Assembly (NCBI GenBank): GCA_000092065.1
Contig: CP000584.1
Length of the DNA: 64,000 nucleotides
From: Ostreococcus lucimarinus
Taxonomy: Eukaryota
Reading direction: 5' to 3' (one strand)
The position numbers and the translations under genes were made by a program. A model generated the notes under the pieces. It saw only the letters and a list, made by a program, of their open reading frames with translations. It had not been told where the DNA came from and made no database searches. Shown here piece by piece: positions 20,184 through 49,540 of the stretch (positions are counted from its first letter, which is position 1; each line of letters opens with the position of its first letter).

Positions 20184-20203
20184 GTGCTCGTCTAGTCAAT
20201 CAA

Positions 20204-27379: not shown

Positions 27380-27623
27380 TCGCGTCTTCTCCGTTCGACA
27401 CGTTCACACCGCGCGCTCGCGCGCACCGCGCTCGCAACGCGCGCTTAGTATATCATCAATACATCGTATCACACCACCCAACCCGACCACTCGACGTCTG
27501 CGCCCTCTCAAAATTCAAATCCTTGGCGCGGCTGTTTGAATTCCAAATTCAAACCGGCGCCCGCACACGCACGCGCGCGCGGCGCGCGGGCGAGCGTTGA
27601 CGACGACGATCGCAACGACGACG

Positions 27624-29822: not shown

Positions 29823-30014
29823 TTTATGTAACGAAGATAAGCGCACGATGATTTGAATAAGGTGATTTTTACTGCAAACATTCACTCTAAACACACCTCA
29901 TCTCACTAATGCAAAGAGCGCGACGCGCTCTTCCGCTCCTATCGCCACGAGTTTCTCGACACACCTAACTGATTGAACACGTAACCGAGTCGTATTGATT
30001 GAATACCTTCCCGT

Positions 30015-31205: not shown

Positions 31206-31325
31206 GGTGTCGACGTGCGAGGCGCGGAAAGACGGAGCGAGGGCGACGCGCGGGCGCGACGGGGCGGACTCGGATTTCTTGGCCCCACGGGAGTGAGATT
31301 TCTGACATCGGACGCCGCGCGCGCG

Positions 31326-33668: not shown

Positions 33669-33778
33669 TCGAGGCGACGCGCGCGACGAACGCGTCGCGA
33701 TGTGTCCCGAGGCGCGCGTCGTTCGTCCGCACTGACGCGCGCGCGCGAGCGCACGAGGCCGCGTCGACGCGCGCGACG

Positions 33779-34423
33779 ATGGACGCGGTCGACGGTGACG
33801 CCGCGCGCGCCGTCCGCGGCGCGCGATTGCCCGAGCGCGCGCGCGTGACGCGCGCGAACGCCGAACGGTTGGGGACGGAGCAACAGTTTTGGTGCACGAC
33901 AAAGTGTTTCGTGCGCGACGTGCTCGAGGCGCGAGAGATCGCGATCGTGGACGACGCGAGCGATGGGGGCGAAGGCGTGGACGATGGACGGGCGAGCGAG
34001 CTGTACGAGATGCGAGGACGGGCGAGCGAGGGCGAGGGGGACGGGACGAAGGCGAGCGAGACGAAGGCGAGCTTCGTCGCGCGGCGGGTCGAAGTGTGTG
34101 GATTCGTGGTGGAGAAACGACGAAGGAAGGATTCGAAGGTGATATTTACCGTGGATGATGGGTCGGGGTGCGTGGAGTGCGTGGTGTGGACGCAAGATGG
34201 TGACGCGGTGTCGGGCGAGCAGATGGAGTTGTTCGGCATCGCGAGCACGGCGGACGGAGCGGCGGCGGTGGCGCGGGACATACGGGTCGGGAGCCTGGCT
34301 CGAGTGCAAGGGCGGATACGAGACTGGAACGGGCGTCGTCAAATCAACGCGACCGCGGTGCAAGTCGATCTCGATCCGAACGAGGAATTACTCTTCTGGC
34401 TCGACGCGTCACTCGAAATCTAG
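33779..34423 (+). CDS. STN1: CST complex subunit STN1, short plant-type OB-fold protein
   Basis: VEVCGFVVEKRRRKDSKVIFTVDDGSGCVECVVWTQD ... SLARVQGRIRDWNGRRQINATAVQVDLDPNEELLFWLD aligns by eye with plant STN1 (VDDGTGCVTCVMW ... ARVRGRV...ERDPNAEILHWLE). The first ATG in ORF 33656..34423 is at 33779. Confidence 0.75.
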   Translation: MDAVDGDAARAVRGARLPERARVTRANAERLGTEQQFWCTTKCFVRDVLEAREIAIVDDASDGGEGVDDGRASELYEMRGRASEGEGDGTKASETKASFVARRVEVCGFVVEKRRRKDSKVIFTVDDGSGCVECVVWTQDGDAVSGEQMELFGIASTADGAAAVARDIRVGSLARVQGRIRDWNGRRQINATAVQVDLDPNEELLFWLDASLEI

Positions 34424-34540
34424 TTAGTAAGAGTTTGGATTTACCTTATTGCACCAAAACTGCGAGCAAAGTCTAAGTCTCTAGTGATAGGATTCTAGTA
34501 TTTTAGCTAATTGTTGTGGTGATGTAGCCCATATCAGCGA

Positions 34541-37500
34541 TTACTCTGGTTTGAGACTCTCTGGGGAGGAGCCATTGTCTTCGTCGCTGCCAGCTCTAGC
34601 CTCTGCCCTTGACCGTCTTCGGAACACTCCTTGAGCAGACGAAAGCCAGCCAGTTAAAATACTCGCCGACGCCGTGCTGAGTGTTTTTGGACGTCTCGTA
34701 TCGAATGCCAACTCCGGATCGTCCGATGACTCAAGATCGGAAGAGCTACCAGAGTCGGAAGTGAGCGCTTGGCGTTTTGGGCCTCCGGACAGCGGCGTAT
34801 TCGCGAGGCTCATTTCCTTTTCTGCGCGCGAGCGTTGCAACCATTGACTCATCACCGAAGCAGCCACGTAAGAAACTGGTTGGCGTTCTGGTGAGGCGGA
34901 ATCACTGGACAACTGAGAAGACGAATCACCGGAATCATCCGAAAGATTCGCTTTCGGTGCAGACGGAGGCACGCTTGCGCGCATCTCTCTCGCTCTCGTC
35001 AACCAGTCTCGCATGACCATCTTTGAAGTTTGACTCATGTGCTCAGTCGTGGCGTACTTGGGTTCTGTATCAGTGTCACTTTCCGACGAGAAGTCAGTCG
35101 AAGAGAACACAGCAGTATTCGTGAGCGACGATTGTCTGTTTGCACGAAGTTGCTTAACCGCAGCCAACCAACCCGTAAGGGCGGCAGAAGAAGCTTCGGA
35201 AAGATTGACAGGCGGGAACCGTTGGAGACCAGCCTCTGTCTCACTTTCAGACGTATCAGAGAGCATGCGGAGATTTACTCCGCGTCCAGATGCTCTCGAA
35301 GCGGCGTGTGTGAGCCATATTCGCATGGCTGCTTCAGCACCCACTGATAGCTTCACTTCTCCGAAGTCTTCTTCCATATCCGAGTCTGACTCTGACATCT
35401 CACCAGCCTTCATTCTACGACGCACAGCTTTTCCGAGTTTCAGCCGCCTTGCAGTACGAGGAGATAGAATTTCTTGTAACTGATCAATGACCCAGTCCCT
35501 ATTCTTTGACATGAAAAGATGGCGGAACTGATCACTCGTGAGGTCGGCCGTCGTGACATCCATCGTTTGGAGGCTGTCGCCACCGCTATCCTCAATCACG
35601 GCTGCCATTTTAGGTACGAAAATGGAAGAAAAATCCTCATCAAGAGAATCCTCGATGATGATTTCCCCAGACGTGATCGAAGAAGTGATTCGCCAGAGGC
35701 CGAAGTGATTTGCCAAGAGGAGGGCGAGACGCTTTGCCGTGTAAGATGCGCCGAGAACCATGAGAACACAAGCCCAGAAGAGGATATCTTCAAACATGTT
35801 GTAGTTTGCTCGGAGCATCATGGAGAGAGCGAGGACGAACAAGAAAGATCCCGAGCCGCCGAGCGCAAGCACAAAGTAGAACTGACTCGAGAAGCACATT
35901 TGATCAATCGCGCGAAGACCGGGGTCAATTGATTCATCGTAAACGCGTTCGAAACCTTTCCATCGCGACGTACGATTGATGAATCGATATCGAGCGTACT
36001 TCAAATACTCGTACACCTTCCAGCCATGGAACAATTCCTGAATGTTGAAAGTTATGATGTCCATGACAATCCAGAACGGAATAATCACGACAGAGAAGAG
36101 AAGATAAATCAAAAGATCCTTCTTTCTGAAACCGTACAGGTACGACAGTCTCAGCTGGTCGTTGAAATCCCAGAAAAAGAAAATGAAGAAAGGCGTCATG
36201 TAGTTAACAGCCGTGTTTACGCCGTAAGCGGCGAGGAAGCCCATTAAATCTTCGACCAACGTATCTTCTGCATCGATTTTTTCCTCTACTTCGACGTCAT
36301 CGTCGTCACCAAAGTTAAATGGTAACAAATTCATGATGTAGTTCACGACTGCGCTGATTTTGTCTGGGAGTACGAGGGCGCAGTACGCGATGAACGCATC
36401 AAGATATACGTACTCGACCATACCCATGATAGTCTCGAAAAAGAAACCAAGGGTGAAATCTGTAAAGTCATCGGCTCCGATCGTCGCAACGCCAACGGCT
36501 GAAGCAAGTACGACCGATACTGGAGCGAGTAAGAAAGCTTCTCCCAACGCGGTTTCTATCTGCATTTCCATGATTACGTGAGCGACCTTCAAGAGGAAGA
36601 AAATGGTAAAGAACTGGACACCGAACGTATCAGTAAACGAGAACTCAATCAAGAAGACATTTGTCACGTTAACTAAGATATTCATCAAAACGAAATGACT
36701 TCGTTTCCAGACTTCTGGTTTGAACATCACTTCATCGACGTAGCGCTCGTCCTCCAATTCCTTCTCTTCTTCGTCTTTCAGTTCGGCAGGGACTAAGATT
36801 TCGGCGGCGCATCCCATCATATACATACCAGCTGTCAAAAAGCAGACTGCGTATCGACCAGCGGTCGCTTTTTCTACGACAGCTGGATCGATTTCACGGC
36901 CGATATTATCAATACTGATCGGGAACTCTGTAATGATTGGGAACGCGACAAACACGGCCCGGAGTCCGAACTGCGCTGTCGCAAACGGTAACATGCCGAG
37001 CGTGACACCCATCAGAGGTGGACCAATCATTATTCGAAGATATGGTAAGAATCGGAATCTCGGTGGTTCTTTCAATAGTGTGAAGATTCTCACGACCACC
37101 CACACAGAAAAGATCAACAACACGACGAGCATTCCGATCGCAAAGAAAAGCGCCAAGTAGAACAGGAAATCAAAAGCAAAGAAATTGAGCAAATCGAACC
37201 AACCTAGCGCTGATACCGCCACGCTAAGCGTGTAAGTACCATCGTGAGCCGTAGCGGATACGTATTCGTCCATCGTCACCGTGGCCGCGATGATTCGTTT
37301 GTCTGAGTCGGTGAATTGATAGTACAAGATCTCAAATTCAACCTTCGTCGGCATCAAACCAGCCGTCAAAACGAATCCTTCGACGGGCGCAAAAATCACA
37401 GGAATATTTTCTTGCGCCGTGATATCGGCCATGTACTTCTCTTTATTTGCGGCTGGCTCCGTCTGGTCGTTCGCCAGGGCGCTTGCTTCGAAAAGAGCGT

Positions 37501-40500
37501 CTTGACTTTCAGCCTCCGCTGTCAAGTAGAACAAGGTGTCACCCTCAGCTTCGTACCAACGCTTCTTTGCTGAAGCTTCTGTGTAGGCCTCTTCATAGAA
37601 ACAATCGATGGTTAACTCGAGCTCATCTGCAACTGCTGCTTGAACTTGCGGAGAGTATTGATTGATGAAGACTGTTTCTTCTTTTGGCACCAACGTGGTC
37701 TCACCATAACTGACAAACGTGCGATCTTCGCCAAACGTGACGGGCTTGTACGGGTTTTCAGTGAGGTGCGAAAAGAAAATATGACTGTCGAATCCGCGGC
37801 AAGCAGAAAAGAAAGGCAAGTAGTCCATCGCGAACAGCGTCTGGTCAGCCGCCCACAAACCTTCATTGAGCAGATACTTTTCTTGCTCGTACACGTCTGG
37901 AAGTGAAAGAGTGATAGTTTCGTCGGTTTGGCCATCCTCGTTCACTATCACCCAATCCTCTGCTTGCGTCGACGTTAAATCAATGTGCGCTTGGCTGGGA
38001 GAATCTTCGGCTGTTAGCACGTTTTGCTGTCGCAGATATTTGAACTTCTTCCACTCCGCACCATACGTAGAGTTGTAATCGATGGCGGCACGGGCATCAA
38101 GCCTTCTACAACCAGGATCTTGGTTAATATTGGCGCACTCGAAGTAATCGGTCGACACTGATCGATACATTGTCGAGGCCACAGGAGCATTCAAGGGCGC
38201 TTGATACTCTTCGTCAATTTCGAATGGCAAAATGGCGTGCACGGAATACGTCGGCGTTGCACTTGCACGCTCTGGAAATTCGACGTCGATGCAAATACTG
38301 TTCAAGAACGACGCACGATTATCCTCTTGATATCTACCATCCAGCATTCTCAGTTCAATTCTGAAAGGCAAATCATCCAAAGCTTGAATGGATAGTTCGT
38401 GCATACCGCGTTTCCAAACGTAGTTCCCAAAAGTTGGATTCTCAACGTTGTAGCCCGTCGCAGTACCATCGCTATTTCTCGCAAACCAGAACGGCAACTC
38501 TAAAGATTCTTGAGAAGCGGGACACTTCTTTTCCTGCTCCTCACCGGCTATGACCTTCATATTCAGCCATGTTATGCCATCGCCTACATCCCATGGCGGG
38601 CATGGCACGGACTTGTATTCGCTTGCAGGGCACAAGGTGTCATCAATCACTGGATTTGTGAAAATAAGCAGCTCGTAATGTTCGCCGTACTTCAGATTTT
38701 CGTTGATTGTCCGCCAATCAAGCCTCAATTTGGCCGTATGACCTCGAGGTAGAGTGAACTTCATCAAAGGGATATTGTTCTCGTCAACGGCGGCGATGCT
38801 GTTGTCATCTGACAGAATGAATGTCGGGTTCAGGAGTTCCCAATTTTTGTTTGTGCAACTGCCCATGCCCATGTAGTCAAATGGGTCGGTGGGTCCTGTC
38901 GCGTTTGAACTAGAAGTGTTCGTCGTATCGATCTGCAATAGAGTGCGACCTGCAGCGATTTGGCTCTCTACTTCCCGAAGCCATTCAGTGTCACGACCTG
39001 TGGCGTTGATTGTTTTGTAATATGTTTTCTCAATCAAGTCAAAACTGACGGGCATGACTCTCCAGAAAGTGATCAAATCTGCAGAGCACTCGTCCAAACT
39101 TTGTGCCGACGGAGACGACGCCGTCCCTGTGGGACATCGGTTGAGCACTTGTCCAGTTCCCGTCGGACAGAAGAAGCAAGCTTGACACGGGAACTGAGTA
39201 CGCGTAGAGTAAGACGCTCCAGCGGGACAGTAGTAACCAGCGGGACATTTGTTGAAAAATTGTGTTTCCGGAGTAGTACCCGGTCCACAGAAGTATCCGT
39301 CGGGGCACTTTTGTTCGGCAATCGATGTTCGAGCGTCGCACACGTAACCCTCCGGACACAAATCCGCTTCACCTTCTGGATCGAGTTGTAAAAGAACACA
39401 CTTGGAGGCGTCGTAAGCCTCGGTGTTGTCCGCATCGCAATAAGCAGAGTACTCGTTTAACGCAGCTGTACCTTGCCCACGAGGTTTGTTATTGCTCATG
39501 CCATCAATGGCGCACACAAGTCCTGAGTTACACGGCAAACATAACGATTCTTCGGTCAAGCCAATAGATGACGACCAGGTTCCTTTCGGACACTGACGGC
39601 ACGCAATGGAGTCCCGCGCAGAGCGGAAATAACCTGCAGGACATGCGGTTGGTTTGAATGTGCCTTCGTCGACGCACTCGTAGCCTGCAGCGCATGTTAG
39701 ACACTCCTGGAACCCTTCGTAAGGCGTATAGGTGCCCGGAAGACATGTAACGGCTGCGGAGTTACCTTGTCCAGATGTGTATGAACCGCGCGGCGCTGGA
39801 ATCGGAATGTAAGTACGTTTCGGACAGTAATGACCCTCGGTACAAGGTCTCATTGGATTATATACATCCGTCGCCGATTCAGAAACCACAGTGGAATCCC
39901 CTGTAGCCCATTCGCAGAAACTTCCTTCCTTACACGGCTGCGGTTGCTTGAAAGAACCCTCCAACACGATCGAAGTTGTTACACCCTCCGTACAGAACGT
40001 CGTGGGAGGACACGGCTTTGGTCGGAAGTTGTCAACGTTCAACGCAATTGGAGATGCATCGACAATAGCTGCCACATCAATAATTGCGAGAGGATCACGG
40101 GTGACGGTATTTTCAAGGCAGTAATGTCCGGCGGGACAACGGGTACCTGCGACGGCCAGACCTTCAGTGTCGCACACGAAGCCGGGTGTGCACACTTCGG
40201 GCGCCTCACGAGCAAAACCTGGGCAAATCGTGCCTTTTGGACATTTTTGACATGAGTCTTTGCCATAATCGGAGTTGTACTCGCCGGGAAGACATGGTTT
40301 CGGTTCGGCGTTGGCGACACCTGGACAATACATTCGCTTTGGGCATCTCAACTGCTGACCAGGAGGACAGTAATGTCCTGGAGGACACGGACCTACGCCT
40401 TGCGGTGTGATAGAACCAGGTTCACAAACATAACCGGCATAGCACTGCTGTGGAGTGGTGAAATTGTATGCGATACTCGCACTCGACACAACACCGGCGG

Positions 40501-43500
40501 TACAGTACATGCCAAATGGACAAGGTAGTGGCCGCTCGGCAACAGTGAAGTCAGTAAAGTTACTCGTTCGCGTACCCTCCAAACAATAATGGCCGGGTGG
40601 ACATAGTTTATTCGGTACAGTAAGGCCAGTAGAGTCACATACCGCACCCCTCGGACAAATGATCGGGATCATTGAGCCCGCGTCTGGCGAAATGTAGCCC
40701 ACTGGCGTTGGAAGACAGTCAGCTTGGCCGGTTCTGGGTTGGAACGTCCCTGGCGGGCATAAGGTGAAATTTTTTCCACCGCCACAGAATGCGCCTCGTG
40801 GACATAAAATGGCTTCACTTTCAGGGCAGTACGATCCAGACGGACATTGTGCGAAATGGAACAGCAGTCGCTGTTCTGAAAAGTCGACTCCATTTGTGGA
40901 GACTTCGACGAACACTGTACGAGTGCCACTTTGCTCCACGCCCGCAACACAAAGAATAGATCTGGATGACAAGAAAGTTGCTGTCGCAAGCTCTTGTCCA
41001 AATCGACACGTTAAACTGGAAGTATTGACAAAATTTGAACCAGTTATGAAAATGGGGCTTCGACTACCGCTCAGACCAACTTTCGGAATGATACCAGAAA
41101 TTTTTGGTGGAACTTGGTAGACAAACGTTGCCGTGTTGATGGTCGAAAGATCACGATCGTTCCCAGAAATGCTAATATCTGCAATTCCTAATCCTCGTGC
41201 CGGCGTGATGCACGTAAGGACGTCGCTTTGAGTGTTGTATGACGTAATTGGAAAGAAGGTGCCGATGCGGCAACTGTAACGCGCGCCATCGGTCAGGCCA
41301 TTCACAGACACCGAGAGCGTGGTTCCACCGTTCTCCGATCCTGTCTCGGGAGACACAGCGGAAATCATCAAATCGTCAATGTACTCGAACGCGGTACCGT
41401 AACTTGAAATAAAACCCGGATCGTCACGAGGAGCCATTCCAATGCCCACTCGGCGCTCAGTAGACCAAGGTGGAGTGATGCAAAGTCCAAGCGCAGACGA
41501 CACCACGTGCGCGCTTGTTTGCTCGTTGCCAAAGTAACAATAGCCAGACTCGTGCAGATTATCTCCGTCGACATGGAGTACGGTTGTTCCGCTAGCCGTA
41601 CCAATACTAGGGTGAACATTGAGAACGACAGGTGGCATGAAAACTTCAAATCCAATCGGTGTTGCAGCGTCGGGCAAAACCATGATTTCAAGAACAGTAA
41701 AACCGAATCCAGAAGGCGGCGTGTCGCAAGTGATCGTTCGCTGATCTTCAAACGTCGCCTGCGCGACCTGTCCATGTAGTTTGCAGCCTAGGTACGCGCC
41801 GTGTGGCAAGTATATTGCACTGTTGGACATCAACTTCAACGTTGTGTCTCCGGCCGCAACGCTCCTCTTCGGCGAGACAAAAGATGGGACGAGTGGAGTG
41901 AAATATTCAAAGCTACCAACCGATGCGTAATCCTTTGAGTTGTACGTCAAAGAGCCAACAACCACAGTACCATTGAGCCCAGCAGGAGAGATGCAAGTGA
42001 CAGACGTCGACGAACGCTGTTCCGAGGTGCTGATTGGACCTATAGTGCCAAACCGACAGAAGATTTCTTGTTCGGTGGCGTCTTCCGCTAAGTTTCCAAT
42101 ATGAAAAGTGAACAGATTGCCTCCGTTTTCCGACAGATATGGGTTTTCCAGACTCTGACTAAGAAAGTCGAAGTCATCCAAATATTGGAACGCCGCAACT
42201 ATCTCGGAAATATAATTTTCATCATCTCGGGGACTGACGCCAAGCGAAACCATGGGCGAATTCCCACTGAGGACAGGAGAAGTACACACACTGAGAGCGG
42301 ACGAAATGGCGTACGCTGTGGTGTTTTGATCACCGAAATGACAGAAACTTGACTCGTGCAAGTGTTCTCCGGCAACGTGGATCACGGAGGATCCACTGTA
42401 GAACCCGACCGACGGAACCATGCTTGTGACAACAGGCGGCACAAAGATGTCAAAGTCTACCCCGACGCCGTCGAGACCTATGGTAGATAACTCCACAAAT
42501 CCCGCCGAAAGAATCGGAACGGGGCAGCTGAGCGTGTATCTTACACAGTCTCTTTGATTACCGCCGGAACACGTAGATGTCCGAACAGCCTGTGACGATA
42601 GAACGGGAAATAACCCAAACATGCATCCCTTTGGCGTCGAGCTCAAACTGTGCCCGGTGGCTTCAAGGACTACGTCAGCAAGGCCCTCGTTCGAAGCTCT
42701 CCCTGGCACGACATGCATGACCGTCATATCCTCCTCGGAATAAATCAAGACAAAATTGGTAAAGTAAGAAGACGTCAAGTGAGATGACAGCCAGACCCGG
42801 ATGGCATCGGGCGACGTCGGTGAGTGCGCCGGAGTCACGAATTCAAAGCTACTTCCCGAGCTTCGCACATACATCGGGCCGATTGAGCCCACGTGTCCAG
42901 CGGGCGCATCCACCAGTTCTTCAAGTATTCCGACAGAAGTTAGCGAGGAAATTTGTATCGTGTCACCTCCAGAGGTTGCCACCGTTTCCGCGGAGATATC
43001 CAGAAGAGTCGGAGCGGGAATGTAACTGATGGACGTTGTACCCATTTCGTCGTAGTTCAAGCTTCCACCAGTATCGACGTATAACGCAATTCTTCCTTGG
43101 TTATTGGAGAAGTACGGTGACTCGCACGTCACCAAGGTCGACGAATGAACTTTTGCGGGCACATTTACGTCGCCAAAGTAGCACTGCACTGACCCACCAG
43201 CCACATCGAGCAAATCTTCACCACTGATAGTGACTAATTCACCACCAGAATTACTGATCAAAGTTGGGTATGCTGACACTAGAATCGGATCAGGTTGGAA
43301 TAAGAACAACGAATCGGTTTCATCTTTCCCAGGTGAGGCACCTAAACTTATTTGAGCGAACCCTGGGGCGTACGCGGGCATGATACACTCAGATACATAA
43401 GGATTCGTGGAGATGGACGTGGCTGAGACGAAAAATCCAGCGACGTGACACTTAATAGAAGTTTCCATTGGGTTTTCATGGAGAATACGAACAGCAACGC

Positions 43501-46500
43501 CTCCACTCACGGATCCGAATGACGGATACACCGCCGAGGAAGACACTTCGACGGTTTCGTGATAGCTGAAAGGTTGTTTCACCGACGTGAACATCTCACC
43601 GAATAAACGAGCATACATGGGAATGGTACCCGCGATGTGCGCGGGAACTCGACATTCTAGACCATTCCCGGTCAGTTGTCCGATGATGGGACCAAGACTT
43701 CCGAATTTGCAAGCACAATTGTCAAATGATTGCTGATACGGATCAACTTTGTAGTAAATTATCGCAATAGACCCTCCATCTTCGTTACTTTCTTGAGGCG
43801 ACACGTGTAAAGGATTATCTTCCTCCTTGATGTACTCAAAGACAATACCAGAGGACTCAAATTCATCGTCCGTGAGGCTTGTTGAACCACTTGACAGAAA
43901 ACTGAGAACTGCAGAGCCAGCATCATTCGCTGGTTGCTCGATCACAACTAGAGCACTTGACACAAACTGTACCGGAGAGAATTTGGTGCTTCCAAAAACA
44001 AACTTGTTGTGCGTGACTTCGTTGAAGTGAACGCCAGTCAATTTTATTATTTCTCCTCCAGCTTCTGCGCCATCATACGGCTGCAAATTAGTAATCTGCG
44101 CATGAGGTTCATAACTGAGCTGTATTTGCGAAGAATCCCACACGCTCACGTCGTGAATTTGCACCCCAACAGCGACAAAACCGGAGCTGTGCGCTGGAGC
44201 GAGACACAAAACGAGACCGTTTGACTCCACTTTTGCAACTGCCGCGTGAAGATCGAACACGCAAGCGACTGGTAAGGTCGCTAGCGAAGAAGGCAATGTG
44301 CTCGGTGAAATCATAAGCTCCACCAAAGATCCCCCATCTAACGATACCGACGTGCGGTATGGCTCAGTGAGATCTATGTTGGCAATGTATTCGTACAGAA
44401 GTGTCGTCGCCGCATTGTCACGCTCATTCATAGCCACAGTCACTGGAACTGTCGCAGGTGAATGGGCAGGCAGGATACATTCAACTTTTTCGGATGAACC
44501 CTGCGTAAGGGAAATTCCAGAGATCGTACCAACTTTGCATGATATTACGCTCAAATCCGTGGAAAAGTCTCCATAGATGTCAACCACAGCACCGCCGGCT
44601 TCCAATCCTCGCGCAGCTGGGTGATCTATTTCGAGTCCAGGAAGAAGAATGAAAGTTATTTGGAAATCCGCACTTTGTTCCACGTCGTTGTATACAAGTT
44701 GTAAAGCAGTGTCATCCTTGCCTTCGGGCGTCACACACACGACGAGCGCCGAAGAAATTACGTGTATAGATGACTTTGCAGTACCTGCACTTGTCGTGTA
44801 ACCGCACGAAGCACTGTAATTCGTACCGCCCCAGATCATATTGGATCCCGTCACATATACCAAACTTCCCCCAATCGTTGGGAATGTGAGTGGAGTCGCT
44901 CTCATGAGTTTCGGTTTGGCAACATAATGGAACTCGAGAGCTGACGACGTAAAATCTTGCAAGTTCATAGAGACATCGATCACCGTGAATCCAGATTTAG
45001 ACGCCGGAGCATTGCAAACAGTATTTGATCCGAAGATGAATGCATTCGTAGTGGTTGAACCAAACCTACACGAAAGATGACTTCCGTAGAAGTTTTCACC
45101 GAACAAAGTCACCGAGGTGCCGCCGGTAACAAAACTCGATTCTGGTATTGTCATTGATGACAACGTCGCGATCACCTTGTACTCAAATGTAGCCGCCGAT
45201 TGACTCAGCTTAATTTCAAACGCAGTATTGTGATGGAACACGTTGACTGGGACTGAACCTGCGCTGTGCGCAGGAGAGACGCAAGACGCCGCATTCATGG
45301 ACAACCATCGTCCAAGAACATTCGAAATGGTTCCAATCCTGAAAGCCAGTGAAACGTCGTTTCGAAACGCCAGGCCATCAAATGAAAGAATAGTACCACC
45401 TTGAGACGGCCCAGTCTTGGGAACTACCCGATGTATGACCGAGGAAGATGTGTTCATGAACTCAAACGGTAAGCCTGGAACCGACCAATCAAAGGCATTG
45501 TTTGAGACTGCAAGGTCATGGTATCCGACCTCCATGCTCGGAGATTCGCACATCACTTGCGAGGGTGAAATAAACGCTGCACGGAATGGAGCTAATGTAC
45601 CGAATCGACACAAAGAAGAGGGAGAAAAGTGATCACCATACACCACGATGGCTGTCCCACCGATGGACGGGCCAGACAGCGGAAGCAAGTGATCCAGCAA
45701 CACCTTCCTCGTTAAAATATCATTTGCATCGGTACTGGAGACGATGTTATTGCCGGAGCTATCGACAATTCTTATATCGTACTCGTTTACGCCGTTGTTA
45801 TCTTCGGGTAACCCACAGAGAACAGAACCATCGCTGAGGACGATGCCTGGGACCAAGGCGTCACCATTTCCAAGATTGCAATACACATCTTGACCAGGAA
45901 CAAATCCCGTACCAGTCACAGTTGCGGTATTATTATCGTTGTTTATAATTGTGGTCACTGACGCTTCAGTAGTATACAAGAAAGTCACCTGCGGACCATC
46001 AGCAAACATGGCGCCGAACTCGCTGACCATGCCGATGTCAAAATTCACCCAACCCTCTACGTGCGCAGGCGCTAGGCACCTATATTCATCTGCAGCGATC
46101 CATTCGCCCACGACAGGACCAATTGAGCCAAACTTACACGCGAGATCGTGTGAATCACTGAAAGAGTGCCCGGCAGCTGTGACTGTGGTACCGCCCTCGA
46201 CTAAACCCATTGATGGTGATAGAGCCGTGACCACTGGAGGTGGATCAAACAAAAATTGCGGCTTCATCGCTAATTCTACTGCGGTTGCTACTACCGATAC
46301 GTCCAGTGCATATGCACCTTCAAACATGCTAGGCGTTTCGCAAATCATCAACGCCGAGGAAACATGTGTTGCCGCTACGGTAGTCGTACCAAACCTACAG
46401 ACAGGATTGTCTTGCAGCAAATGCTCCCCTTCTATGTGGACTAATGTTCCACCTCCTATGGCACCAACTCTGGGCGCTATTCTAGTAATTTCAATCACGT

Positions 46501-47659
46501 CCTTTAATTCAAGCTGCACACTGTCTGATGCAAAGACGGAATATTGGAAATCTTGACCGTTCGAGGCCACCGCAACGGAGACAAAACCGATTCCAGCTGG
46601 AGCTACGCAGGTCACAGCGTTGGTTCCCGCGAGACCTGGAACTTTATGCGAGCCAAATTTACACGCAAGCTCTGGTGTTTGCACGACACTCTGTACCGTG
46701 ATAGACACATGGGAAGATCCTGCCGAAGAGACCTGGAACGGCGCGATTGCATCGACAACGAGACTCGATAGAAAAGTGAACGAGTTTGAGAATGTCACAT
46801 AGTCTCGATGATTCATCGAGACGCTCAGGGGCTTAGCCGCTAAAGAAGATGCAGGCGTCGCGCACTCCAATGTATTTTCATTCTGGTAAATCGCGGAGAC
46901 CTCAATTGCTCCGAAGCGACACCGCAACAAACTTGTCGGCGCAAAATTTTGTCCCGTCAGCGTCACCAACGTGCCCCCTTCGCCAGTACCGACTGCTGGA
47001 CTGACGCGACTTATCGACGGCGCGCCGATATAAATGTGCTGGACGCTACTGAAAGCCTCGAAAAAGTTTGAGGAAGTCAAAGACACGTCCACAGCGACGG
47101 TTCCCTTGTCGATCGAAGGTGATTCACACTTCATCAAACCAGACGAGACGATGTGCCCAGTAGTCGTGAGGTCGCCAAATCGACAGTACTGCGACACGTG
47201 CATATCAGCACCGAATACGTCTACGATACCTCCTGAAATACCATACACAGAGTTCACGGCGTCCACCTTGGCGCCACTCACAAATTGATATCCTTTTGTT
47301 CTCAAAAAGTCTCCCGTTTCATTGTTGAGCGCGAATTCGACGTTTACGAAACCCTCCGTGTGTGACGGTGCTGTGCATTTGACCGTCTCGGCGTCTACGT
47401 AATACGCCCGAACGAACTCATTATCAAACTTGCACGTGAGCTCTGCCCCTGGTATATTCTGAACCGCTGCCAGCTGCTTACTCGAGAGCGTGACGACTTC
47501 GCCGCCGCCCACGTGTCCCGCGCTCGGATACATCCATTCCACCTCTGGAATCTCAAATCCTCGAGCGCCGCACGCGAAGCACGCCGCCACCGTGATTAGG
47601 AATAAAACCAACCAAATCGCACGCGATGGACGAAACGACCTCATATCGCTCGTCCTCAT
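34541..47659 (-). CDS. Giant 4372-aa receptor-like membrane protein, single 13.1-kb exon: signal peptide; about 20-24 IPT/TIG-like repeats; ephrin-receptor/furin-like Cys-rich repeats; unknown ectodomain; about 11-TM domain; Ser/Asp-rich cytoplasmic tail with WLxxAR repeats
   Basis: Uninterrupted ORF 34541..47659. N-terminus: MRTSDMRSFRPSRAIWLVLFLITVAACFACGARG. There are more than 17 clearly readable repeats with the pattern C[RK]FG-x(15-20)-C-x-[AST]P, for example CRFGDLTTTGHIVSSGLMKCESPS and CKFGSHKVPGLAGTNAVTCVAPA. Cys repeats occupy about nt 39070-40850 (CQKCPKGTICPG, CPAGYFRSARDSIACRQCPKGTWSS, CPAGYYCPAG). Hydrophobic helices occupy about nt 35690-37210. The tail is at 34544-35690. Confidence 0.8.
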   Translation of the reverse strand: MRTSDMRSFRPSRAIWLVLFLITVAACFACGARGFEIPEVEWMYPSAGHVGGGEVVTLSSKQLAAVQNIPGAELTCKFDNEFVRAYYVDAETVKCTAPSHTEGFVNVEFALNNETGDFLRTKGYQFVSGAKVDAVNSVYGISGGIVDVFGADMHVSQYCRFGDLTTTGHIVSSGLMKCESPSIDKGTVAVDVSLTSSNFFEAFSSVQHIYIGAPSISRVSPAVGTGEGGTLVTLTGQNFAPTSLLRCRFGAIEVSAIYQNENTLECATPASSLAAKPLSVSMNHRDYVTFSNSFTFLSSLVVDAIAPFQVSSAGSSHVSITVQSVVQTPELACKFGSHKVPGLAGTNAVTCVAPAGIGFVSVAVASNGQDFQYSVFASDSVQLELKDVIEITRIAPRVGAIGGGTLVHIEGEHLLQDNPVCRFGTTTVAATHVSSALMICETPSMFEGAYALDVSVVATAVELAMKPQFLFDPPPVVTALSPSMGLVEGGTTVTAAGHSFSDSHDLACKFGSIGPVVGEWIAADEYRCLAPAHVEGWVNFDIGMVSEFGAMFADGPQVTFLYTTEASVTTIINNDNNTATVTGTGFVPGQDVYCNLGNGDALVPGIVLSDGSVLCGLPEDNNGVNEYDIRIVDSSGNNIVSSTDANDILTRKVLLDHLLPLSGPSIGGTAIVVYGDHFSPSSLCRFGTLAPFRAAFISPSQVMCESPSMEVGYHDLAVSNNAFDWSVPGLPFEFMNTSSSVIHRVVPKTGPSQGGTILSFDGLAFRNDVSLAFRIGTISNVLGRWLSMNAASCVSPAHSAGSVPVNVFHHNTAFEIKLSQSAATFEYKVIATLSSMTIPESSFVTGGTSVTLFGENFYGSHLSCRFGSTTTNAFIFGSNTVCNAPASKSGFTVIDVSMNLQDFTSSALEFHYVAKPKLMRATPLTFPTIGGSLVYVTGSNMIWGGTNYSASCGYTTSAGTAKSSIHVISSALVVCVTPEGKDDTALQLVYNDVEQSADFQITFILLPGLEIDHPAARGLEAGGAVVDIYGDFSTDLSVISCKVGTISGISLTQGSSEKVECILPAHSPATVPVTVAMNERDNAATTLLYEYIANIDLTEPYRTSVSLDGGSLVELMISPSTLPSSLATLPVACVFDLHAAVAKVESNGLVLCLAPAHSSGFVAVGVQIHDVSVWDSSQIQLSYEPHAQITNLQPYDGAEAGGEIIKLTGVHFNEVTHNKFVFGSTKFSPVQFVSSALVVIEQPANDAGSAVLSFLSSGSTSLTDDEFESSGIVFEYIKEEDNPLHVSPQESNEDGGSIAIIYYKVDPYQQSFDNCACKFGSLGPIIGQLTGNGLECRVPAHIAGTIPMYARLFGEMFTSVKQPFSYHETVEVSSSAVYPSFGSVSGGVAVRILHENPMETSIKCHVAGFFVSATSISTNPYVSECIMPAYAPGFAQISLGASPGKDETDSLFLFQPDPILVSAYPTLISNSGGELVTISGEDLLDVAGGSVQCYFGDVNVPAKVHSSTLVTCESPYFSNNQGRIALYVDTGGSLNYDEMGTTSISYIPAPTLLDISAETVATSGGDTIQISSLTSVGILEELVDAPAGHVGSIGPMYVRSSGSSFEFVTPAHSPTSPDAIRVWLSSHLTSSYFTNFVLIYSEEDMTVMHVVPGRASNEGLADVVLEATGHSLSSTPKGCMFGLFPVLSSQAVRTSTCSGGNQRDCVRYTLSCPVPILSAGFVELSTIGLDGVGVDFDIFVPPVVTSMVPSVGFYSGSSVIHVAGEHLHESSFCHFGDQNTTAYAISSALSVCTSPVLSGNSPMVSLGVSPRDDENYISEIVAAFQYLDDFDFLSQSLENPYLSENGGNLFTFHIGNLAEDATEQEIFCRFGTIGPISTSEQRSSTSVTCISPAGLNGTVVVGSLTYNSKDYASVGSFEYFTPLVPSFVSPKRSVAAGDTTLKLMSNSAIYLPHGAYLGCKLHGQVAQATFEDQRTITCDTPPSGFGFTVLEIMVLPDAATPIGFEVFMPPVVLNVHPSIGTASGTTVLHVDGDNLHESGYCYFGNEQTSAHVVSSALGLCITPPWSTERRVGIGMAPRDDPGFISSYGTAFEYIDDLMISAVSPETGSENGGTTLSVSVNGLTDGARYSCRIGTFFPITSYNTQSDVLTCITPARGLGIADISISGNDRDLSTINTATFVYQVPPKISGIIPKVGLSGSRSPIFITGSNFVNTSSLTCRFGQELATATFLSSRSILCVAGVEQSGTRTVFVEVSTNGVDFSEQRLLFHFAQCPSGSYCPESEAILCPRGAFCGGGKNFTLCPPGTFQPRTGQADCLPTPVGYISPDAGSMIPIICPRGAVCDSTGLTVPNKLCPPGHYCLEGTRTSNFTDFTVAERPLPCPFGMYCTAGVVSSASIAYNFTTPQQCYAGYVCEPGSITPQGVGPCPPGHYCPPGQQLRCPKRMYCPGVANAEPKPCLPGEYNSDYGKDSCQKCPKGTICPGFAREAPEVCTPGFVCDTEGLAVAGTRCPAGHYCLENTVTRDPLAIIDVAAIVDASPIALNVDNFRPKPCPPTTFCTEGVTTSIVLEGSFKQPQPCKEGSFCEWATGDSTVVSESATDVYNPMRPCTEGHYCPKRTYIPIPAPRGSYTSGQGNSAAVTCLPGTYTPYEGFQECLTCAAGYECVDEGTFKPTACPAGYFRSARDSIACRQCPKGTWSSSIGLTEESLCLPCNSGLVCAIDGMSNNKPRGQGTAALNEYSAYCDADNTEAYDASKCVLLQLDPEGEADLCPEGYVCDARTSIAEQKCPDGYFCGPGTTPETQFFNKCPAGYYCPAGASYSTRTQFPCQACFFCPTGTGQVLNRCPTGTASSPSAQSLDECSADLITFWRVMPVSFDLIEKTYYKTINATGRDTEWLREVESQIAAGRTLLQIDTTNTSSSNATGPTDPFDYMGMGSCTNKNWELLNPTFILSDDNSIAAVDENNIPLMKFTLPRGHTAKLRLDWRTINENLKYGEHYELLIFTNPVIDDTLCPASEYKSVPCPPWDVGDGITWLNMKVIAGEEQEKKCPASQESLELPFWFARNSDGTATGYNVENPTFGNYVWKRGMHELSIQALDDLPFRIELRMLDGRYQEDNRASFLNSICIDVEFPERASATPTYSVHAILPFEIDEEYQAPLNAPVASTMYRSVSTDYFECANINQDPGCRRLDARAAIDYNSTYGAEWKKFKYLRQQNVLTAEDSPSQAHIDLTSTQAEDWVIVNEDGQTDETITLSLPDVYEQEKYLLNEGLWAADQTLFAMDYLPFFSACRGFDSHIFFSHLTENPYKPVTFGEDRTFVSYGETTLVPKEETVFINQYSPQVQAAVADELELTIDCFYEEAYTEASAKKRWYEAEGDTLFYLTAEAESQDALFEASALANDQTEPAANKEKYMADITAQENIPVIFAPVEGFVLTAGLMPTKVEFEILYYQFTDSDKRIIAATVTMDEYVSATAHDGTYTLSVAVSALGWFDLLNFFAFDFLFYLALFFAIGMLVVLLIFSVWVVVRIFTLLKEPPRFRFLPYLRIMIGPPLMGVTLGMLPFATAQFGLRAVFVAFPIITEFPISIDNIGREIDPAVVEKATAGRYAVCFLTAGMYMMGCAAEILVPAELKDEEEKELEDERYVDEVMFKPEVWKRSHFVLMNILVNVTNVFLIEFSFTDTFGVQFFTIFFLLKVAHVIMEMQIETALGEAFLLAPVSVVLASAVGVATIGADDFTDFTLGFFFETIMGMVEYVYLDAFIAYCALVLPDKISAVVNYIMNLLPFNFGDDDDVEVEEKIDAEDTLVEDLMGFLAAYGVNTAVNYMTPFFIFFFWDFNDQLRLSYLYGFRKKDLLIYLLFSVVIIPFWIVMDIITFNIQELFHGWKVYEYLKYARYRFINRTSRWKGFERVYDESIDPGLRAIDQMCFSSQFYFVLALGGSGSFLFVLALSMMLRANYNMFEDILFWACVLMVLGASYTAKRLALLLANHFGLWRITSSITSGEIIIEDSLDEDFSSIFVPKMAAVIEDSGGDSLQTMDVTTADLTSDQFRHLFMSKNRDWVIDQLQEILSPRTARRLKLGKAVRRRMKAGEMSESDSDMEEDFGEVKLSVGAEAAMRIWLTHAASRASGRGVNLRMLSDTSESETEAGLQRFPPVNLSEASSAALTGWLAAVKQLRANRQSSLTNTAVFSSTDFSSESDTDTEPKYATTEHMSQTSKMVMRDWLTRAREMRASVPPSAPKANLSDDSGDSSSQLSSDSASPERQPVSYVAASVMSQWLQRSRAEKEMSLANTPLSGGPKRQALTSDSGSSSDLESSDDPELAFDTRRPKTLSTASASILTGWLSSAQGVFRRRSRAEARAGSDEDNGSSPESLKPE

Positions 47660-48588
47660 CCCGCGCGTCGTCGTCGTCCCGCTCGCGTCGCGTTCAAACC
47701 TTCTCCACCCTCGCCATCGACCGCGCGCGCGCCTCTTTCCCCATCGTCTCCGTCCAGTTCGACGTCTACGTCCTATTTCTCGCCGCCCTCAACGCGTCGA
47801 GCCGATCACCGCTGAATTCTTCGCGCACGTCCCGTCCCGTCGCGCGCACGAATTTGAACGATGCCGCCCCGATGTCCACGACGTATTTTCGTCCGCGTCC
47901 GTCCGCGCGTCCGACGCGCGCGATCGACGTCGCCCGCGCGCGTTCGATCGTCGTCGCGTCGATCGACGGATTCGTCGCGTTCGCACGCGCTCTACCGCGC
48001 GCTCTGCCGCGCGCGTCCCCCGCGCGTCCGACGCCGCGTCAATCCGCGGACCGCGGCCAAAACGGCCGAGTCACTGGCGCGCAGTCAGACGCACGATTTC
48101 CCAATCGAACCGTTTGAAGGCGCTTTTCCTCACCGAATACGACGATGGATCTTCCCTTGAGTCGAGATCGATAAGGGAAAAAAGCGCGCGGTGGTTGGTC
48201 CGTGTGCGACGTGCGCGAGGAAGACTCGCCTCGCGCGCCTCGTCGCGCGTCGCCGCGACGCCGTCCGTCTTTCACACGCGCGCGGAGTAGAGGTGCGGCG
48301 CGAACGATGCGAGCGCGCGGAACGAATGCACGACGCGGTGACCATCGATGCATCGGCGCGCGCGCGCGGACGGCGCGTCGATCGCGCGTGCAGCGCGCGC
48401 GAACCGAGCGCGCGCGATTAGGGTCACGGTGCAGCGCGATGTCGTCGACTGCGTGCGGGCGCGCGCGCGGGCGCGAGCGCGGGTGGTGCAGACGACGACG
48501 GCGCTGGGTGAAAAGTATTTCGTTCGCGCGGCGCGATCGGTGACTGACGACGTGTGAACGCGTGAAAACGCGTGTTTCGCGAGCAGCC
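47660..48588. promoter_or_regulatory. CpG-rich 930-bp divergent intergenic region between the giant gene and RPL32 (the largest noncoding stretch in the window)
   Basis: There is no credible coding frame; only Arg-rich ORFs on both strands. It is flanked by ATG 47659 (minus) and ATG 48589 (plus). Confidence 0.4.
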
Positions 48589-49266: not shown

Positions 49267-49540
49267 ATGTCTGGGTCTTCTTAGCCAACTTAGGAGCAGT
49301 GTCAGCGAGGAGGGTGTGATATTTGGGATAGAGATTTTGTTAGAAAACGTTCAGCGAAATCAAAACAGTACTTTGAGCGCTCGCCACGCCTCGCGCAGCC
49401 TTCTCAAACGCGCTCGCCGTGCGTCTCACGCCTGATTTAGTTTTTATCTTGCTCGCAGTGTTGGCCCCGTCGCTCTGGCGACTCGGTGCGTGTCGCGCGT
49501 TCGCCTTTTGGCCGCAGAGCGCGCCGCGGCGCCAGCGAGG

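What the first reader, a model, noticed from the sequence alone, without database searches (positions are those of the whole stretch)
34541..47659. The giant gene is a compositional island (visibly lower GC and GC3 than every neighbouring gene)
Neighbouring genes are about 65-70% GC with strong G/C at third codon positions (gcg/cgc/gac/gtc dominate). The 13-kb ORF reads at roughly 50% GC with frequent A/T-ending codons (aaa, att, gaa, tat). The RFT1 gene at the window end and the coiled-coil gene at 7717-8757 show a milder version. Possible explanations are recent horizontal or viral acquisition, very low expression with relaxed codon selection, or origin from the low-GC outlier-chromosome compartment known in Mamiellales.
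Basis: partly seen in the sequence, partly recalled or inferred. Interest (0 to 1): 0.6.

Follow-up and report, generated by a model that had tools for sequence, protein, structure and literature searches.

The report
Old giant gene lacking genome's CpG bias
A 13-kb gene of the tiny marine alga Ostreococcus really is much less GC-rich than its neighbours. It is not foreign DNA but an old, conserved, working gene that has stayed free of the G/C- and CpG-favouring codon bias of the rest of the genome.

Summary
ORF 34541-47659 (-), 4372 codons, has GC 0.50 and GC3 0.51. Twenty-eight neighbouring ORFs average GC3 0.745 (minimum 0.625), z = -3.3. With the neighbours' codon preferences the giant's GC3 would be 0.73.

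The window comes from an Ostreococcus species. The same gene sits at the same syntenic position in at least nine Ostreococcus lineages, including O. tauri. In each lineage compared with its neighbours (eight), its GC3 is 0.09-0.17 below theirs, although fourfold sites are saturated between lineages. It is under purifying selection (dN/dS 0.15-0.18). Its relatives are in green algae and an oomycete, and none was found in viruses. Recent horizontal or viral acquisition is therefore rejected, and nothing places the gene in an outlier-chromosome compartment.

The outlier status comes mainly from CpG:
- Neighbours strongly prefer synonymous choices that create CpG, above all in their first 200 codons.
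- The giant gene has no such preference, and slightly avoids CpG in other lineages.
- In CpG-free contexts it is only at the low edge of normal (0.50 against 0.61, z = -1.5).

The likeliest cause is a long-standing relaxation of G/C- and CpG-favouring fixation bias in a very long, probably weakly expressed gene. Reduced biased gene conversion is the main rival. This is ordinary biology, with a moderately interesting CpG aspect.

The parts
34541..47659 (-). Giant gene: one 4372-codon ORF with GC 0.50, GC3 0.51, Nc 57 and CpG o/e 1.19. This is the compositional island.
47360..47659 (-). First 100 codons, including the signal peptide (aa 14-32 hydrophobic). This is the only part of the gene with raised GC3 (0.64). 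It shows a CpG preference (+0.095 pooled over 8 lineages), a muted version of the 5' CpG-rich zone seen in all genes.
40847..47557 (-). Array of IPT/TIG domains (aa about 35-2271). Pfam TIG E = 2.9e-156, with 15 stretches passing. There are no repeats at the DNA level.
39062..40846 (-). Cysteine-rich region (aa about 2272-2866, about 60 Cys) with ephrin-receptor-like repeats. Pfam PF07699 E = 7.5e-6, 4 stretches.
35630..37852 (-). [not shown]
34544..35629 (-). Ser/Asp-rich C-terminal tail carrying four regex-matched Trp-Leu helical motifs, plus a fifth seen by eye.
34424..34540 (.). AT-rich convergent 3' spacer (GC 0.376) between the giant gene and the OB-fold gene 33779-34423 (+). It marks the downstream edge of the island.
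47660..48038 (.). GC-rich upstream region (0.63-0.73 per 100 bp), presumed to be the promoter. It marks the upstream edge of the island.
24716..34423 (.). Syntenic downstream block used as the internal control in every lineage: APC-like TPR gene, unknown 732-aa gene, RPS3, TMF/golgin and an OB-fold gene.

Best explanation
The island is an ancient, vertically inherited, functional Ostreococcus gene. It encodes a secreted array of IPT/TIG repeats, a cysteine-rich region and a multi-helix membrane module. Its synonymous sites sit near an unbiased, close-to-neutral composition. That state is stationary and has been maintained independently in every lineage of the genus.

In this genome GC3 is pushed up by two things:
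- A preference for synonymous states that create CpG. It is very strong in the first 100-200 codons of every gene and weaker further in.
- A general preference for G/C-ending codons.

The giant gene receives almost none of either:
- About 95% of its codons lie beyond the 5' CpG-rich zone.
- In its body CpG is neutral (this species) or slightly avoided (other lineages), as expected if methylated CpG decays and is not replenished.
- In CpG-free contexts its GC3 is flat at about 0.49-0.50 along the whole gene.

Inferred, not shown: the fixation bias is weak because the gene is expressed very weakly, or only in a rare life stage. Selection for G/C-ending optimal codons, documented in O. tauri, would then be ineffective. 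Its great length dilutes the 5' effect.

Shown: antiquity, synteny, stationarity, purifying selection and the CpG decomposition.

The confidence of 0.55 is for the whole statement. I put about 0.9 on the claim that the gene is native, ancient and in a stationary relaxed state, and about 0.45 on low expression plus length as the main cause.
For: Antiquity and synteny:
- blastn collinearity with L002.
- 38 metagenome loci fall into at least 8 lineages, and all that reach past the gene's 3' end carry the same downstream genes.
- An O. tauri locus, whose TMF is 99.7% identical to CEF97486.1, carries a 4397-aa TIG gene next to it. Its GC3 is 0.533 against 0.64-0.79 for its neighbours.

Stationarity:
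- Fourfold sites differ at 0.67-0.71 between lineages, yet the giant's GC3 is 0.44-0.53 everywhere. It is always 0.09-0.17 below the same syntenic neighbours.

Function retained:
- dN/dS is 0.148-0.175 in three sister pairs, against 0.27-0.35 for neighbours.
- dS is only 1.0-1.27 times that of neighbours.

No codon bias:
- Nc is 57 and fourfold sites are near-uniform.
- CAI z = -3.1.

CpG decomposition:
- Neighbours have GC3 0.65-0.94 in CpG-capable contexts and 0.505-0.73 in CpG-free contexts. The giant has 0.489 and 0.502. The z-scores are -3.9 and -1.5.
- C/(C+T) at position 3 in neighbours is 0.76 before G and 0.56 otherwise. In the giant it is 0.476 and 0.484.
- The 5'-to-3' fall of GC3 in neighbours lies in CpG contexts only.
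- CpG o/e is 1.02-1.19 in the giant against 1.32-1.61 in neighbours in all nine lineages. Outside the window species and its sister the giant shows CpG avoidance of 0.03-0.11.
- CpG sites lose G/C about twice as fast as other G/C sites, in both the giant and its flank.

Length effect:
- Among neighbours, length correlates with GC3 at Spearman -0.58 (p = 0.001).
- A log-length regression predicts 0.59 for 4372 codons.

Literature:
- In O. tauri codon bias rises with expression, and nearly all optimal codons end in G or C (PMC3673656).
- The mutational equilibrium GC is 0.37-0.44, well below the genomic GC (PMC5455958).
- Prasinophytes combine high 5mCG with CpG enrichment. 5mC lies in linkers along gene bodies and is replaced by 6mA in the first nucleosomes after the TSS of active genes (PMC12695648).
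- Convergent 3' spacers in the window have GC 0.41.
Against: - No expression data could be consulted, so low expression is an inference.
- The expression-bias correlation in O. tauri is weak (rho = -0.22, PMC3673656). An outlier of three standard deviations needs an extreme case or a second cause.
- Length alone fails. At the same distance from the start codon (codons 300-600) neighbours have GC3 0.62-0.66 and the giant 0.43-0.46.
- Interiors of 700-1000-codon neighbours plateau at about 0.62-0.65 rather than falling further.
- Housekeeping genes in the non-recombining mating-type region of the same genus also have GC3 about 20% lower (PMC8557840). Lack of recombination, without low expression, is therefore enough to produce this composition.
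- GC1 is also lowered (0.52 against 0.63), which translational selection does not predict. The protein class may account for it.
- Polarised substitution counts are small (39 W>S and 54 S>W in the giant).
Confidence: 0.55

Rival explanations
1. The gene is a local cold spot for recombination. It is a 13-kb stretch with no promoter, or with a closed promoter, so it rarely lies in a gene-conversion tract. It escapes GC-biased gene conversion and drifts towards mutational equilibrium, like the non-recombining mating-type region of the big outlier chromosome but at the scale of one gene. This does not exclude low expression.
For: - GC3 of about 0.5 and a deficit of about 20% are what mating-type-locus genes show in Ostreococcus. 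This is attributed to loss of gBGC (PMC8557840; PMC5498103).
- Chromosome GC rises with recombination rate in O. tauri, and the site-frequency spectrum (SFS) fits gBGC.
- GC1 and GC2 are also lower in the giant.
- Recent substitutions give GC* of 0.41-0.44 in both the giant and its flank. The flank therefore sits further above its mutational input (0.566 against 0.439) than the giant does (0.485 against 0.405).
- In several lineages the 3' half of the adjacent OB-fold gene is also low, at 0.39-0.60.
Against: - In CpG-free contexts neighbours show almost no promoter-centred gradient (0.61 falling to 0.57). The giant is already at 0.49 in its first 100 codons, next to its own GC-rich promoter. 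Promoter-centred conversion does not predict this.
- In O. tauri LD is halved within 2 kb and recombination is detected over 94% of the genome.
- Recombination across the gene was not measured here.
Confidence: 0.25
2. The transcription unit has a different chromatin or methylation state. It might be methylated throughout, or lack the phased nucleosome and linker-methylation regime. CpG would then decay there or not be selected for. The island would be an epigenomic domain rather than an effect of expression or recombination.
For: - The outlier status is concentrated in CpG contexts (z = -3.9 against -1.5).
- rho(CpG) is 1.19 against 1.66, and rho(TpG/CpA) is 1.11 against 0.79.
- CpG is avoided in the gene body in seven lineages.
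- The edges coincide with the gene's ends in the window species.
- CpG enrichment together with linker 5mC is a known prasinophyte trait.
Against: - The rate of G/C loss per CpG site is similar in the giant (0.0150) and the flank (0.0160) (small numbers).
- No nucleosome-scale periodicity of CpG was seen in either the giant or the rest of the window.
- A deficit of about 0.09 also exists in CpG-free contexts, which methylation does not explain.
- No methylation data were available.
Confidence: 0.12
3. The gene was recently acquired horizontally or from a virus. It has prasinovirus-like GC and has not yet ameliorated.
For: - Atypical GC, codon usage and dinucleotide signature.
- GC close to that of prasinoviruses (from my own knowledge; PMC3673656 describes viral genomes as more AT-rich).
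Against: - Present at the same locus in at least nine lineages that are saturated at synonymous sites.
- Low GC3 is stationary and tracks each lineage's background.
- Relatives are in green algae and an oomycete with the same architecture.
- No relative in IMG/VR or BFVD.
- No tRNA genes, DNA repeats within the gene or mobile-element families among the 20 neighbour ORFs scanned.
- Strong purifying selection.
Confidence: 0.02
4. The gene anciently moved out of the low-GC part of an outlier chromosome and kept that compartment's composition.
For: - The GC3 deficit resembles that of genes in the big outlier chromosome.
- Which chromosome carries the O. tauri locus could not be settled. The chromosome is 944,948 bp in one assembly and 1,212,239 bp in another, and chromosome 2 varies from 965 to 1217 kb.
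Against: - A composition inherited from a former location cannot survive synonymous saturation unless a local force maintains it.
- The gene has no introns or transposons, unlike the outlier region.
- The flanks have normal GC and are housekeeping genes in all lineages.
Confidence: 0.04
5. The region is an assembly chimera or contamination from a lower-GC organism.
For: There are sharp GC steps at both ends.
Against: - Identical junctions occur in many independent assemblies from JGI, ENA, NCBI and Logan.
- The ORF ends and flanks are contiguous in all of them.
Confidence: 0.01

Closest known systems
Low-GC region of the big outlier chromosome (candidate mating-type locus) of Mamiellales
   Same: GC is lower by roughly 10-17 points and GC3 by about 20%. 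The deficit is conserved across species and is interpreted as loss of GC-favouring fixation bias (PMC8557840, PMC5498103).
   Different: That region spans 450-650 kb with many genes. It is reported (from my own knowledge for introns) to be intron- and transposon-rich, it does not recombine, and the two mating types cannot be aligned. Here a single intron-less 13-kb gene lies between normal-GC housekeeping genes, collinear in all lineages, with within-lineage copies about 100% identical.
Dependence of codon bias on expression and on gene length (Duret & Mouchiroud 1999; O. tauri: Michely et al. 2013, PMC3673656)
   Same: A very long gene with almost no codon bias, in a genome where optimal codons end in G or C and bias rises with expression.
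   Different: The size of the effect (3 sd from 28 neighbours). Most of the signal is a dinucleotide (CpG) effect that also acts across codon boundaries, which tRNA-based selection does not predict.
Prasinophyte CpG enrichment with DNMT5 linker methylation (Huff & Zilberman 2014, as cited in PMC12695648, PMC5082852 and PMC5728721)
   Same: The neighbours show the known genome-wide CpG excess (o/e 1.4-2.0).
   Different: The giant gene is a gene-sized exception (o/e 1.0-1.2). Whether its methylation differs is unknown.
Horizontally acquired genomic islands and virus-derived genes
   Same: Atypical GC, codon usage and dinucleotide signature, with sharp edges.
   Different: The distribution is not patchy, no donor-like relatives exist, no mobility features are present, and the atypical composition does not decay over saturating divergence.
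Giant IPT/TIG-repeat surface proteins (fibrocystin/PKHD1, plexins, Dictyostelium Tgr proteins). This comparison rests on my own knowledge.
   Same: A signal peptide and long arrays of IPT/TIG domains ahead of a membrane anchor.

Membership tests
Horizontally or virally acquired island | Composition atypical for the host genome | tested here: met
   GC3 0.51 against 0.745; delta* 182 against 24-43
Horizontally or virally acquired island | Patchy distribution: absent from close relatives or at a different locus | tested here: not met
   Same syntenic locus in at least 9 Ostreococcus lineages, including O. tauri
Horizontally or virally acquired island | Closest relatives in the putative donor (virus or bacterium) | tested here: not met
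   Named relatives are in Prasinoderma, Mesostigma and Pythium. There is no IMG/VR hit and no BFVD fold hit.
Horizontally or virally acquired island | Composition ameliorates towards the host with time | tested here: not met
   The deficit of 0.09-0.17 persists although fourfold sites are saturated (0.67-0.71 differ)
Horizontally or virally acquired island | Mobility signatures at the edges (tRNA gene, repeats, integrase or transposase) | tested here: not met
   No tRNA or Rfam hit in the window. No DNA repeats in the gene. The 20 neighbouring ORFs scanned gave housekeeping families or none, and no integrase or transposase family.
Low-GC region of a Mamiellales outlier chromosome | GC 9-17 points below the rest of the genome | tested here: met
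   0.50 against about 0.62
Low-GC region of a Mamiellales outlier chromosome | Large multi-gene block (hundreds of kb) with introns and transposons | tested here: not met
   A single 13-kb intron-less ORF. The flanks return to normal GC within about 200 bp.
Low-GC region of a Mamiellales outlier chromosome | Suppressed recombination | not testable with these tools
   Needs population data. The copies within a lineage held here are about 100% identical.
Gene with relaxed codon bias and low expression | Effective number of codons near the no-bias limit, with no preferred codons | tested here: met
   Nc 57.0 (60.5 expected from GC3); fourfold sites near-uniform
Gene with relaxed codon bias and low expression | Protein still under purifying selection (not a pseudogene) | tested here: met
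   dN/dS 0.148-0.175 in three sister pairs. The ORF is intact in the lineages assembled without indel errors (L002 is split only by homopolymer indels).
Gene with relaxed codon bias and low expression | Low mRNA or protein abundance | not testable with these tools
   No expression data could be reached
IPT/TIG-domain proteins (Pfam PF01833) | Significant match to the TIG profile | tested here: met
   E = 2.9e-156, 508 bits against a cut-off of 20.9, 15 stretches
TMEM16/anoctamin-OSCA-TMC fold (for the C-terminal module) | Clear structural superposition on the ten-helix fold | tested here: inconclusive
   [not shown]

The most novel reading that the evidence does not exclude
The giant gene could be a gene-sized domain that the genus-wide CpG-enrichment system does not reach. 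That system is thought to involve DNMT5 linker methylation and nucleosome phasing, and/or CpG-directed biased repair. The gene might, for example, encode a surface adhesion or mechanosensing receptor used only in a rare sexual or stress stage and silent in vegetative cells. Kept in that state for the whole radiation of Ostreococcus, it would be a built-in neutral reference. Against it, the strength and cause of CpG and GC enrichment in Mamiellales could be measured directly.
Probability: 0.12. Interest if true: 0.6.

Novelty: new member of a known kind. Interest (0 to 1): 0.3.

Why it matters
- The result removes a tempting false positive. In Ostreococcus a compositional outlier of this size is not evidence of gene transfer or viral capture.
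- Gene-level GC3 in these compact genomes is largely a CpG phenomenon with a steep 5'-to-3' gradient. Screens for foreign genes based on GC3 or CAI will therefore systematically flag long, weakly biased native genes.
- The gene supplies 13 kb of constrained coding DNA whose synonymous sites appear almost free of the genome's fixation biases.
- It could serve as an internal control for separating mutation bias, biased gene conversion, codon selection and methylation effects in Mamiellales. The gap between mutational equilibrium (0.37-0.44) and observed GC (0.56-0.64) there is still unexplained.
- The protein belongs to a large, undescribed family of giant eukaryotic membrane proteins.

Tried and rejected
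- The homologue search with the whole 4372-aa protein timed out. The C-terminal 1051 aa were used instead.
- The word-index search found only 4 relatives, while the exhaustive search found 891. Absence from the first is therefore not informative.
- An exact look-up of the giant protein found nothing on record.
- I looked for hypervariable alleles in the TIG region, because truncated loci gave low identities. Rejected: within-lineage copies are about 100% identical, and the low values were truncation artefacts.
- I looked for nucleosome-scale periodicity of CpG. None was visible in the giant or in the rest of the window.
- I looked for DNA-level repeats or homogenisation among the TIG units and found none.
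- The first AF2 run on a 5-sequence alignment was useless (pLDDT 36). A 38-sequence alignment gave pLDDT 83.
- The afdb50 fold library was not available.
- Huff & Zilberman 2014 (PMC3969382) is not held. Its content is cited only through other papers.
- The supplements of PMC8557840 are not held, so the chromosome carrying the O. tauri locus could not be identified.
- A literature search for a described TIG-repeat giant protein in Ostreococcus found nothing.
- I considered and rejected amino-acid composition as the sole cause (expected GC3 0.73).
- I considered and rejected gene length alone, because of the difference at equal distance from the start codon.
- I considered and rejected higher CpG mutability in the giant, because rates per CpG site are similar.
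- I considered and rejected loss of transcription-coupled repair, because dS is only 1.0-1.27 times that of neighbours.
Full report

Yes. The window has one uninterrupted 4372-codon ORF at 34541-47659 on the minus strand.

- Per-kb GC falls from 0.55-0.72 in the flanks to 0.46-0.53 across it.
- The gene has GC 0.498, GC1 0.522, GC2 0.463 and GC3 0.510.
- I picked 29 further ORFs with a simple codon model, and 28 entered the statistics. Their GC3 averages 0.745 (sd 0.071, minimum 0.625), which puts the giant at z = -3.3.
- With the neighbours' codon preferences and the giant's own amino acids, GC3 would be 0.730. Protein composition is therefore not the cause.
- Non-overlapping 300-codon windows barely overlap: the giant's maximum is 0.59 and the neighbours' minimum is 0.58, Mann-Whitney p = 3e-7.
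- Leave-one-out CAI is 0.500 against 0.698 +/- 0.064.
- Nc is 57, and fourfold sites are almost uniform.
- The dinucleotide signature is far from the rest of the window: delta* is 182 against 24-43 for neighbour chunks.

Three details of the finding need correction:

- Neighbour genes are 54-74% GC, not 65-70%.
- The coiled-coil gene has normal GC3 (0.74) and is low only at second positions.
- The RFT1 region is low mainly between at least five frame-shifted pieces.

**2. Whose genome is it, and what surrounds the gene?**

- The neighbours are ordinary eukaryotic housekeeping genes: PP2A-A-like HEAT protein, PRP31, GrpE, PIG-N, RED, GDA1/CD39, Rcd1, TMF/golgin, APC-like TPR proteins and an MFS transporter, plus RPS3 (identified in the syntenic loci and by blastn collinearity).
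- PRP31 is 100% identical only to metagenome proteins. It is 81% identical to O. tauri and 60% to Micromonas pusilla.
- The window is therefore from an Ostreococcus species other than O. tauri; no named genome matching it was seen in the tables.

**3. Is the gene foreign?**

No.

- A 149-kb metagenome contig (L002) carries the gene and the same downstream genes in the same order.
- A metagenome scan returned 38 loci. Identity of the C-terminal region to the window falls into bands at 100/99, 93, about 80, 77-78, 73-74 and 68-72%.
- TMF clusters tie these loci to distinct lineages.
- A Logan contig whose TMF is 99.7% identical to O. tauri CEF97486.1 carries a 4397-aa TIG gene in the same arrangement.

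Codon-aligned comparison gives the following GC3 values. The O. tauri range is for individual neighbour genes.

| Lineage | Giant GC3 | Syntenic neighbours GC3 |
|---|---|---|
| Window species | 0.51 | 0.68 |
| O. tauri (L043) | 0.533 | 0.64-0.79 |
| L002 | 0.503 | 0.622 |
| L016 group | 0.486 | 0.608 |
| L030 group | 0.467 | 0.637 |
| L021 | 0.465 | 0.611 |
| L025 | 0.465 | 0.559 |
| L026 group | 0.443 | 0.553 |

- Between these lineages and the window, fourfold sites differ at 0.67-0.71, which is saturation. A composition left over from a transfer would have been erased. The low GC3 is therefore a maintained equilibrium.
- The conserved C-terminal module has 891 relatives among 1.84 billion representatives, many of them giant.
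- The named relatives are from Prasinoderma coloniale (43% identity), Mesostigma viride (39%) and Pythium insidiosum (31%).
- IMG/VR holds no relative, and BFVD holds no similar fold.
- No tRNA gene, Rfam hit or DNA repeat marks the edges.
- The gene is constrained. dN/dS is 0.175, 0.152 and 0.148 in three sister pairs, against 0.27-0.35 for the neighbours, and dS is similar.

**4. What exactly is different?**

I split third positions by whether a G or C there would create a CpG, meaning that position 2 is C or the next base is G.

- In 22 neighbours of at least 200 codons, GC3 is 0.793 +/- 0.078 in CpG-capable contexts and 0.605 +/- 0.069 in CpG-free contexts.
- The giant has 0.489 and 0.502, giving z = -3.9 and -1.5.
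- The effect crosses codon boundaries. C/(C+T) at position 3 in neighbour interiors is 0.76 before G and 0.56 otherwise. In the giant it is 0.476 and 0.484.
- All genes show a steep 5'-to-3' fall of GC3, from 0.81 in codons 1-100 to 0.65 beyond codon 400. It lies almost entirely in CpG contexts: 0.85-0.93 falling to 0.67-0.75, against 0.61 falling to 0.57 in CpG-free contexts.
- GC1 and GC2 are also raised in the first 100 codons.
- Divergent promoter spacers are GC-rich (0.67) and convergent 3' spacers are AT-rich (0.41).
- Pooled over eight lineages, the giant shows a CpG preference only in its first 100 codons (+0.095). It then shows mild avoidance (-0.01 to -0.09) along the whole body.
- Its CpG-free GC3 is flat at about 0.45-0.53 from the first codon on.
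- The interiors of the four syntenic neighbours, pooled in the same way, have CpG excess near 0 and CpG-free GC3 of about 0.58.
- CpG o/e is 1.02-1.19 in the giant and 1.32-1.61 in the neighbours in all nine lineages.

The gap of about 0.235 in the window species therefore has three parts:

- Dilution of the 5' CpG-rich zone by sheer length, roughly 0.09.
- A missing CpG preference in the gene body.
- A general deficit of about 0.08-0.09 in all contexts.

Gene length correlates with GC3 among neighbours (Spearman -0.58). A log-length regression predicts 0.59 for the giant, so 0.51 is only 1.3 residual sd below that trend. Length alone still fails, because at equal distance from the start codon the giant is about 0.2 lower.

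**5. Mechanism**

What the literature gives:

- Mutation in Mamiellophyceae is biased towards AT. Equilibrium GC is 0.37 in O. tauri and 0.44 in O. mediterraneus, against observed 0.59 and 0.56. Selection or biased gene conversion must hold GC up (PMC5455958).
- In O. tauri codon bias rises with expression, and nearly all optimal codons end in G or C, but rho is only -0.22 (PMC3673656).
- Genes in the non-recombining mating-type region have GC3 about 20% lower (PMC8557840).
- Chromosome GC follows recombination rate (PMC5498103).
- Prasinophytes combine dense CpG methylation in nucleosome linkers along gene bodies with CpG enrichment. [quoted passage not shown]

My reading of the data:

- The giant gene is what Ostreococcus coding DNA looks like when the G/C- and CpG-favouring fixation biases are nearly off.
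- A polarised count on two sister lineages shows that CpG sites lose G/C about twice as fast as other G/C sites, in the giant and the flank alike (0.0150 and 0.0160 per site).
- The same count shows the flank further above its mutational input than the giant (small numbers).
- The input is thus similar, and what differs is what gets fixed.
- Why fixation bias is weak there cannot be settled from sequence.
- I rank highest weak or stage-restricted expression combined with great length. The reasons are the flat gene-wide deficit that includes the promoter-proximal codons, and the absence of any codon preference.
- Reduced biased gene conversion comes second. It reproduces the mating-type-locus composition, and GC1 is also lowered.
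- A distinct methylation or chromatin state comes third. These three are not mutually exclusive.

**6. The protein**

- It has a signal peptide, then about 2240 residues of IPT/TIG domains (Pfam E = 2.9e-156).
- A cysteine-rich stretch of about 600 residues follows, with ephrin-receptor-like repeats.
- Next comes an undescribed region, and then a conserved module at aa 3270-4010 with no Pfam family and no sequence match to a solved structure.
- With a 38-sequence alignment AF2 gives pLDDT 83 and pTM 0.83 for that module. The model is a beta domain followed by about ten long helices.
- Foldseek finds nothing in PDB.
- The tail is rich in Ser and Asp and carries four to five Trp-Leu helical motifs.
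- A surface adhesion or sensing role is a guess.

**7. Verdict**

- The exciting readings (transfer, virus, outlier chromosome) are rejected or unsupported.
It needs two additions: the signal is mostly a missing CpG preference, and length matters through a 5' CpG-rich zone common to all genes.
- This is a new instance of a known kind of thing. Its main use is as a caution for screens of foreign genes and as an internal near-neutral control.

Noticed in passing
whole window (all annotated ORFs): Every gene shows a steep 5'-to-3' fall of GC3, from 0.81 in codons 1-100 to about 0.65 beyond codon 400. It lies almost only in CpG-capable contexts. GC1 and GC2 are also raised in the first 100 codons. 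The same gradient appears in orthologues from six other lineages.
   Followed up: partly
window 1641-1711, 5110-5177, 20012-20203, 22302-22355, 29823-30014, 34424-34540, 51545-51627, 57574-57649, 60294-60497: Convergent 3' spacers are strongly AT-rich (pooled GC 0.413), close to the published mutational equilibrium. Divergent promoter spacers have GC 0.673.
   Followed up: partly
window 61340-63333: The RFT1-like gene is broken into at least five pieces in different frames, separated by stretches of GC 0.44-0.52. This means several introns, which I recall being unusual in such a compact genome, or a decaying gene.
   Followed up: no
window 47660-49540: A 1.9-kb GC-rich stretch (0.63) lies just upstream of the giant gene. 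It has no convincing ORF, no Pfam match and no Rfam match, so what it encodes is unknown.
   Followed up: partly
window 9149-12226 (+): A 1025-codon ORF has a weak coding score (0.12 bits per codon), GC2 of 0.66 and no Pfam family. It is either a low-complexity protein or not a gene.
   Followed up: no
[not shown]
   Followed up: partly
window 34634-35317 (-), aa 4115-4342: Four regex-matched Trp-Leu helical motifs (WLTHA, WLTRA, WLQRS, WLSSA), with a fifth (WLAAV) seen by eye in the translation, are spaced along a Ser/Asp-rich cytoplasmic tail. They may form a repeated docking site.
   Followed up: no
L046:22-11172: A 40%-identical homologue in a GC-rich genome has GC3 of 0.74. It shows clear CpG avoidance (0.68 in CpG contexts against 0.81 in CpG-free contexts). 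Low GC is therefore not intrinsic to the family.
   Followed up: partly
L002:9900-9960 and 12120-12470: The orthologue on this JGI contig is split by single-base homopolymer indels. These look like assembly errors rather than pseudogenisation.
   Followed up: yes
O. tauri records behind P0196, P0472 and P0473: The chromosome carrying the O. tauri PRP31 and TMF genes is 944,948 bp in the reference. A second O. tauri assembly carries TMF on a 1,212,239-bp record. Chromosome 2 is reported to vary from 965 to 1217 kb, so whether the locus lies on the big outlier chromosome is unresolved.
   Followed up: partly
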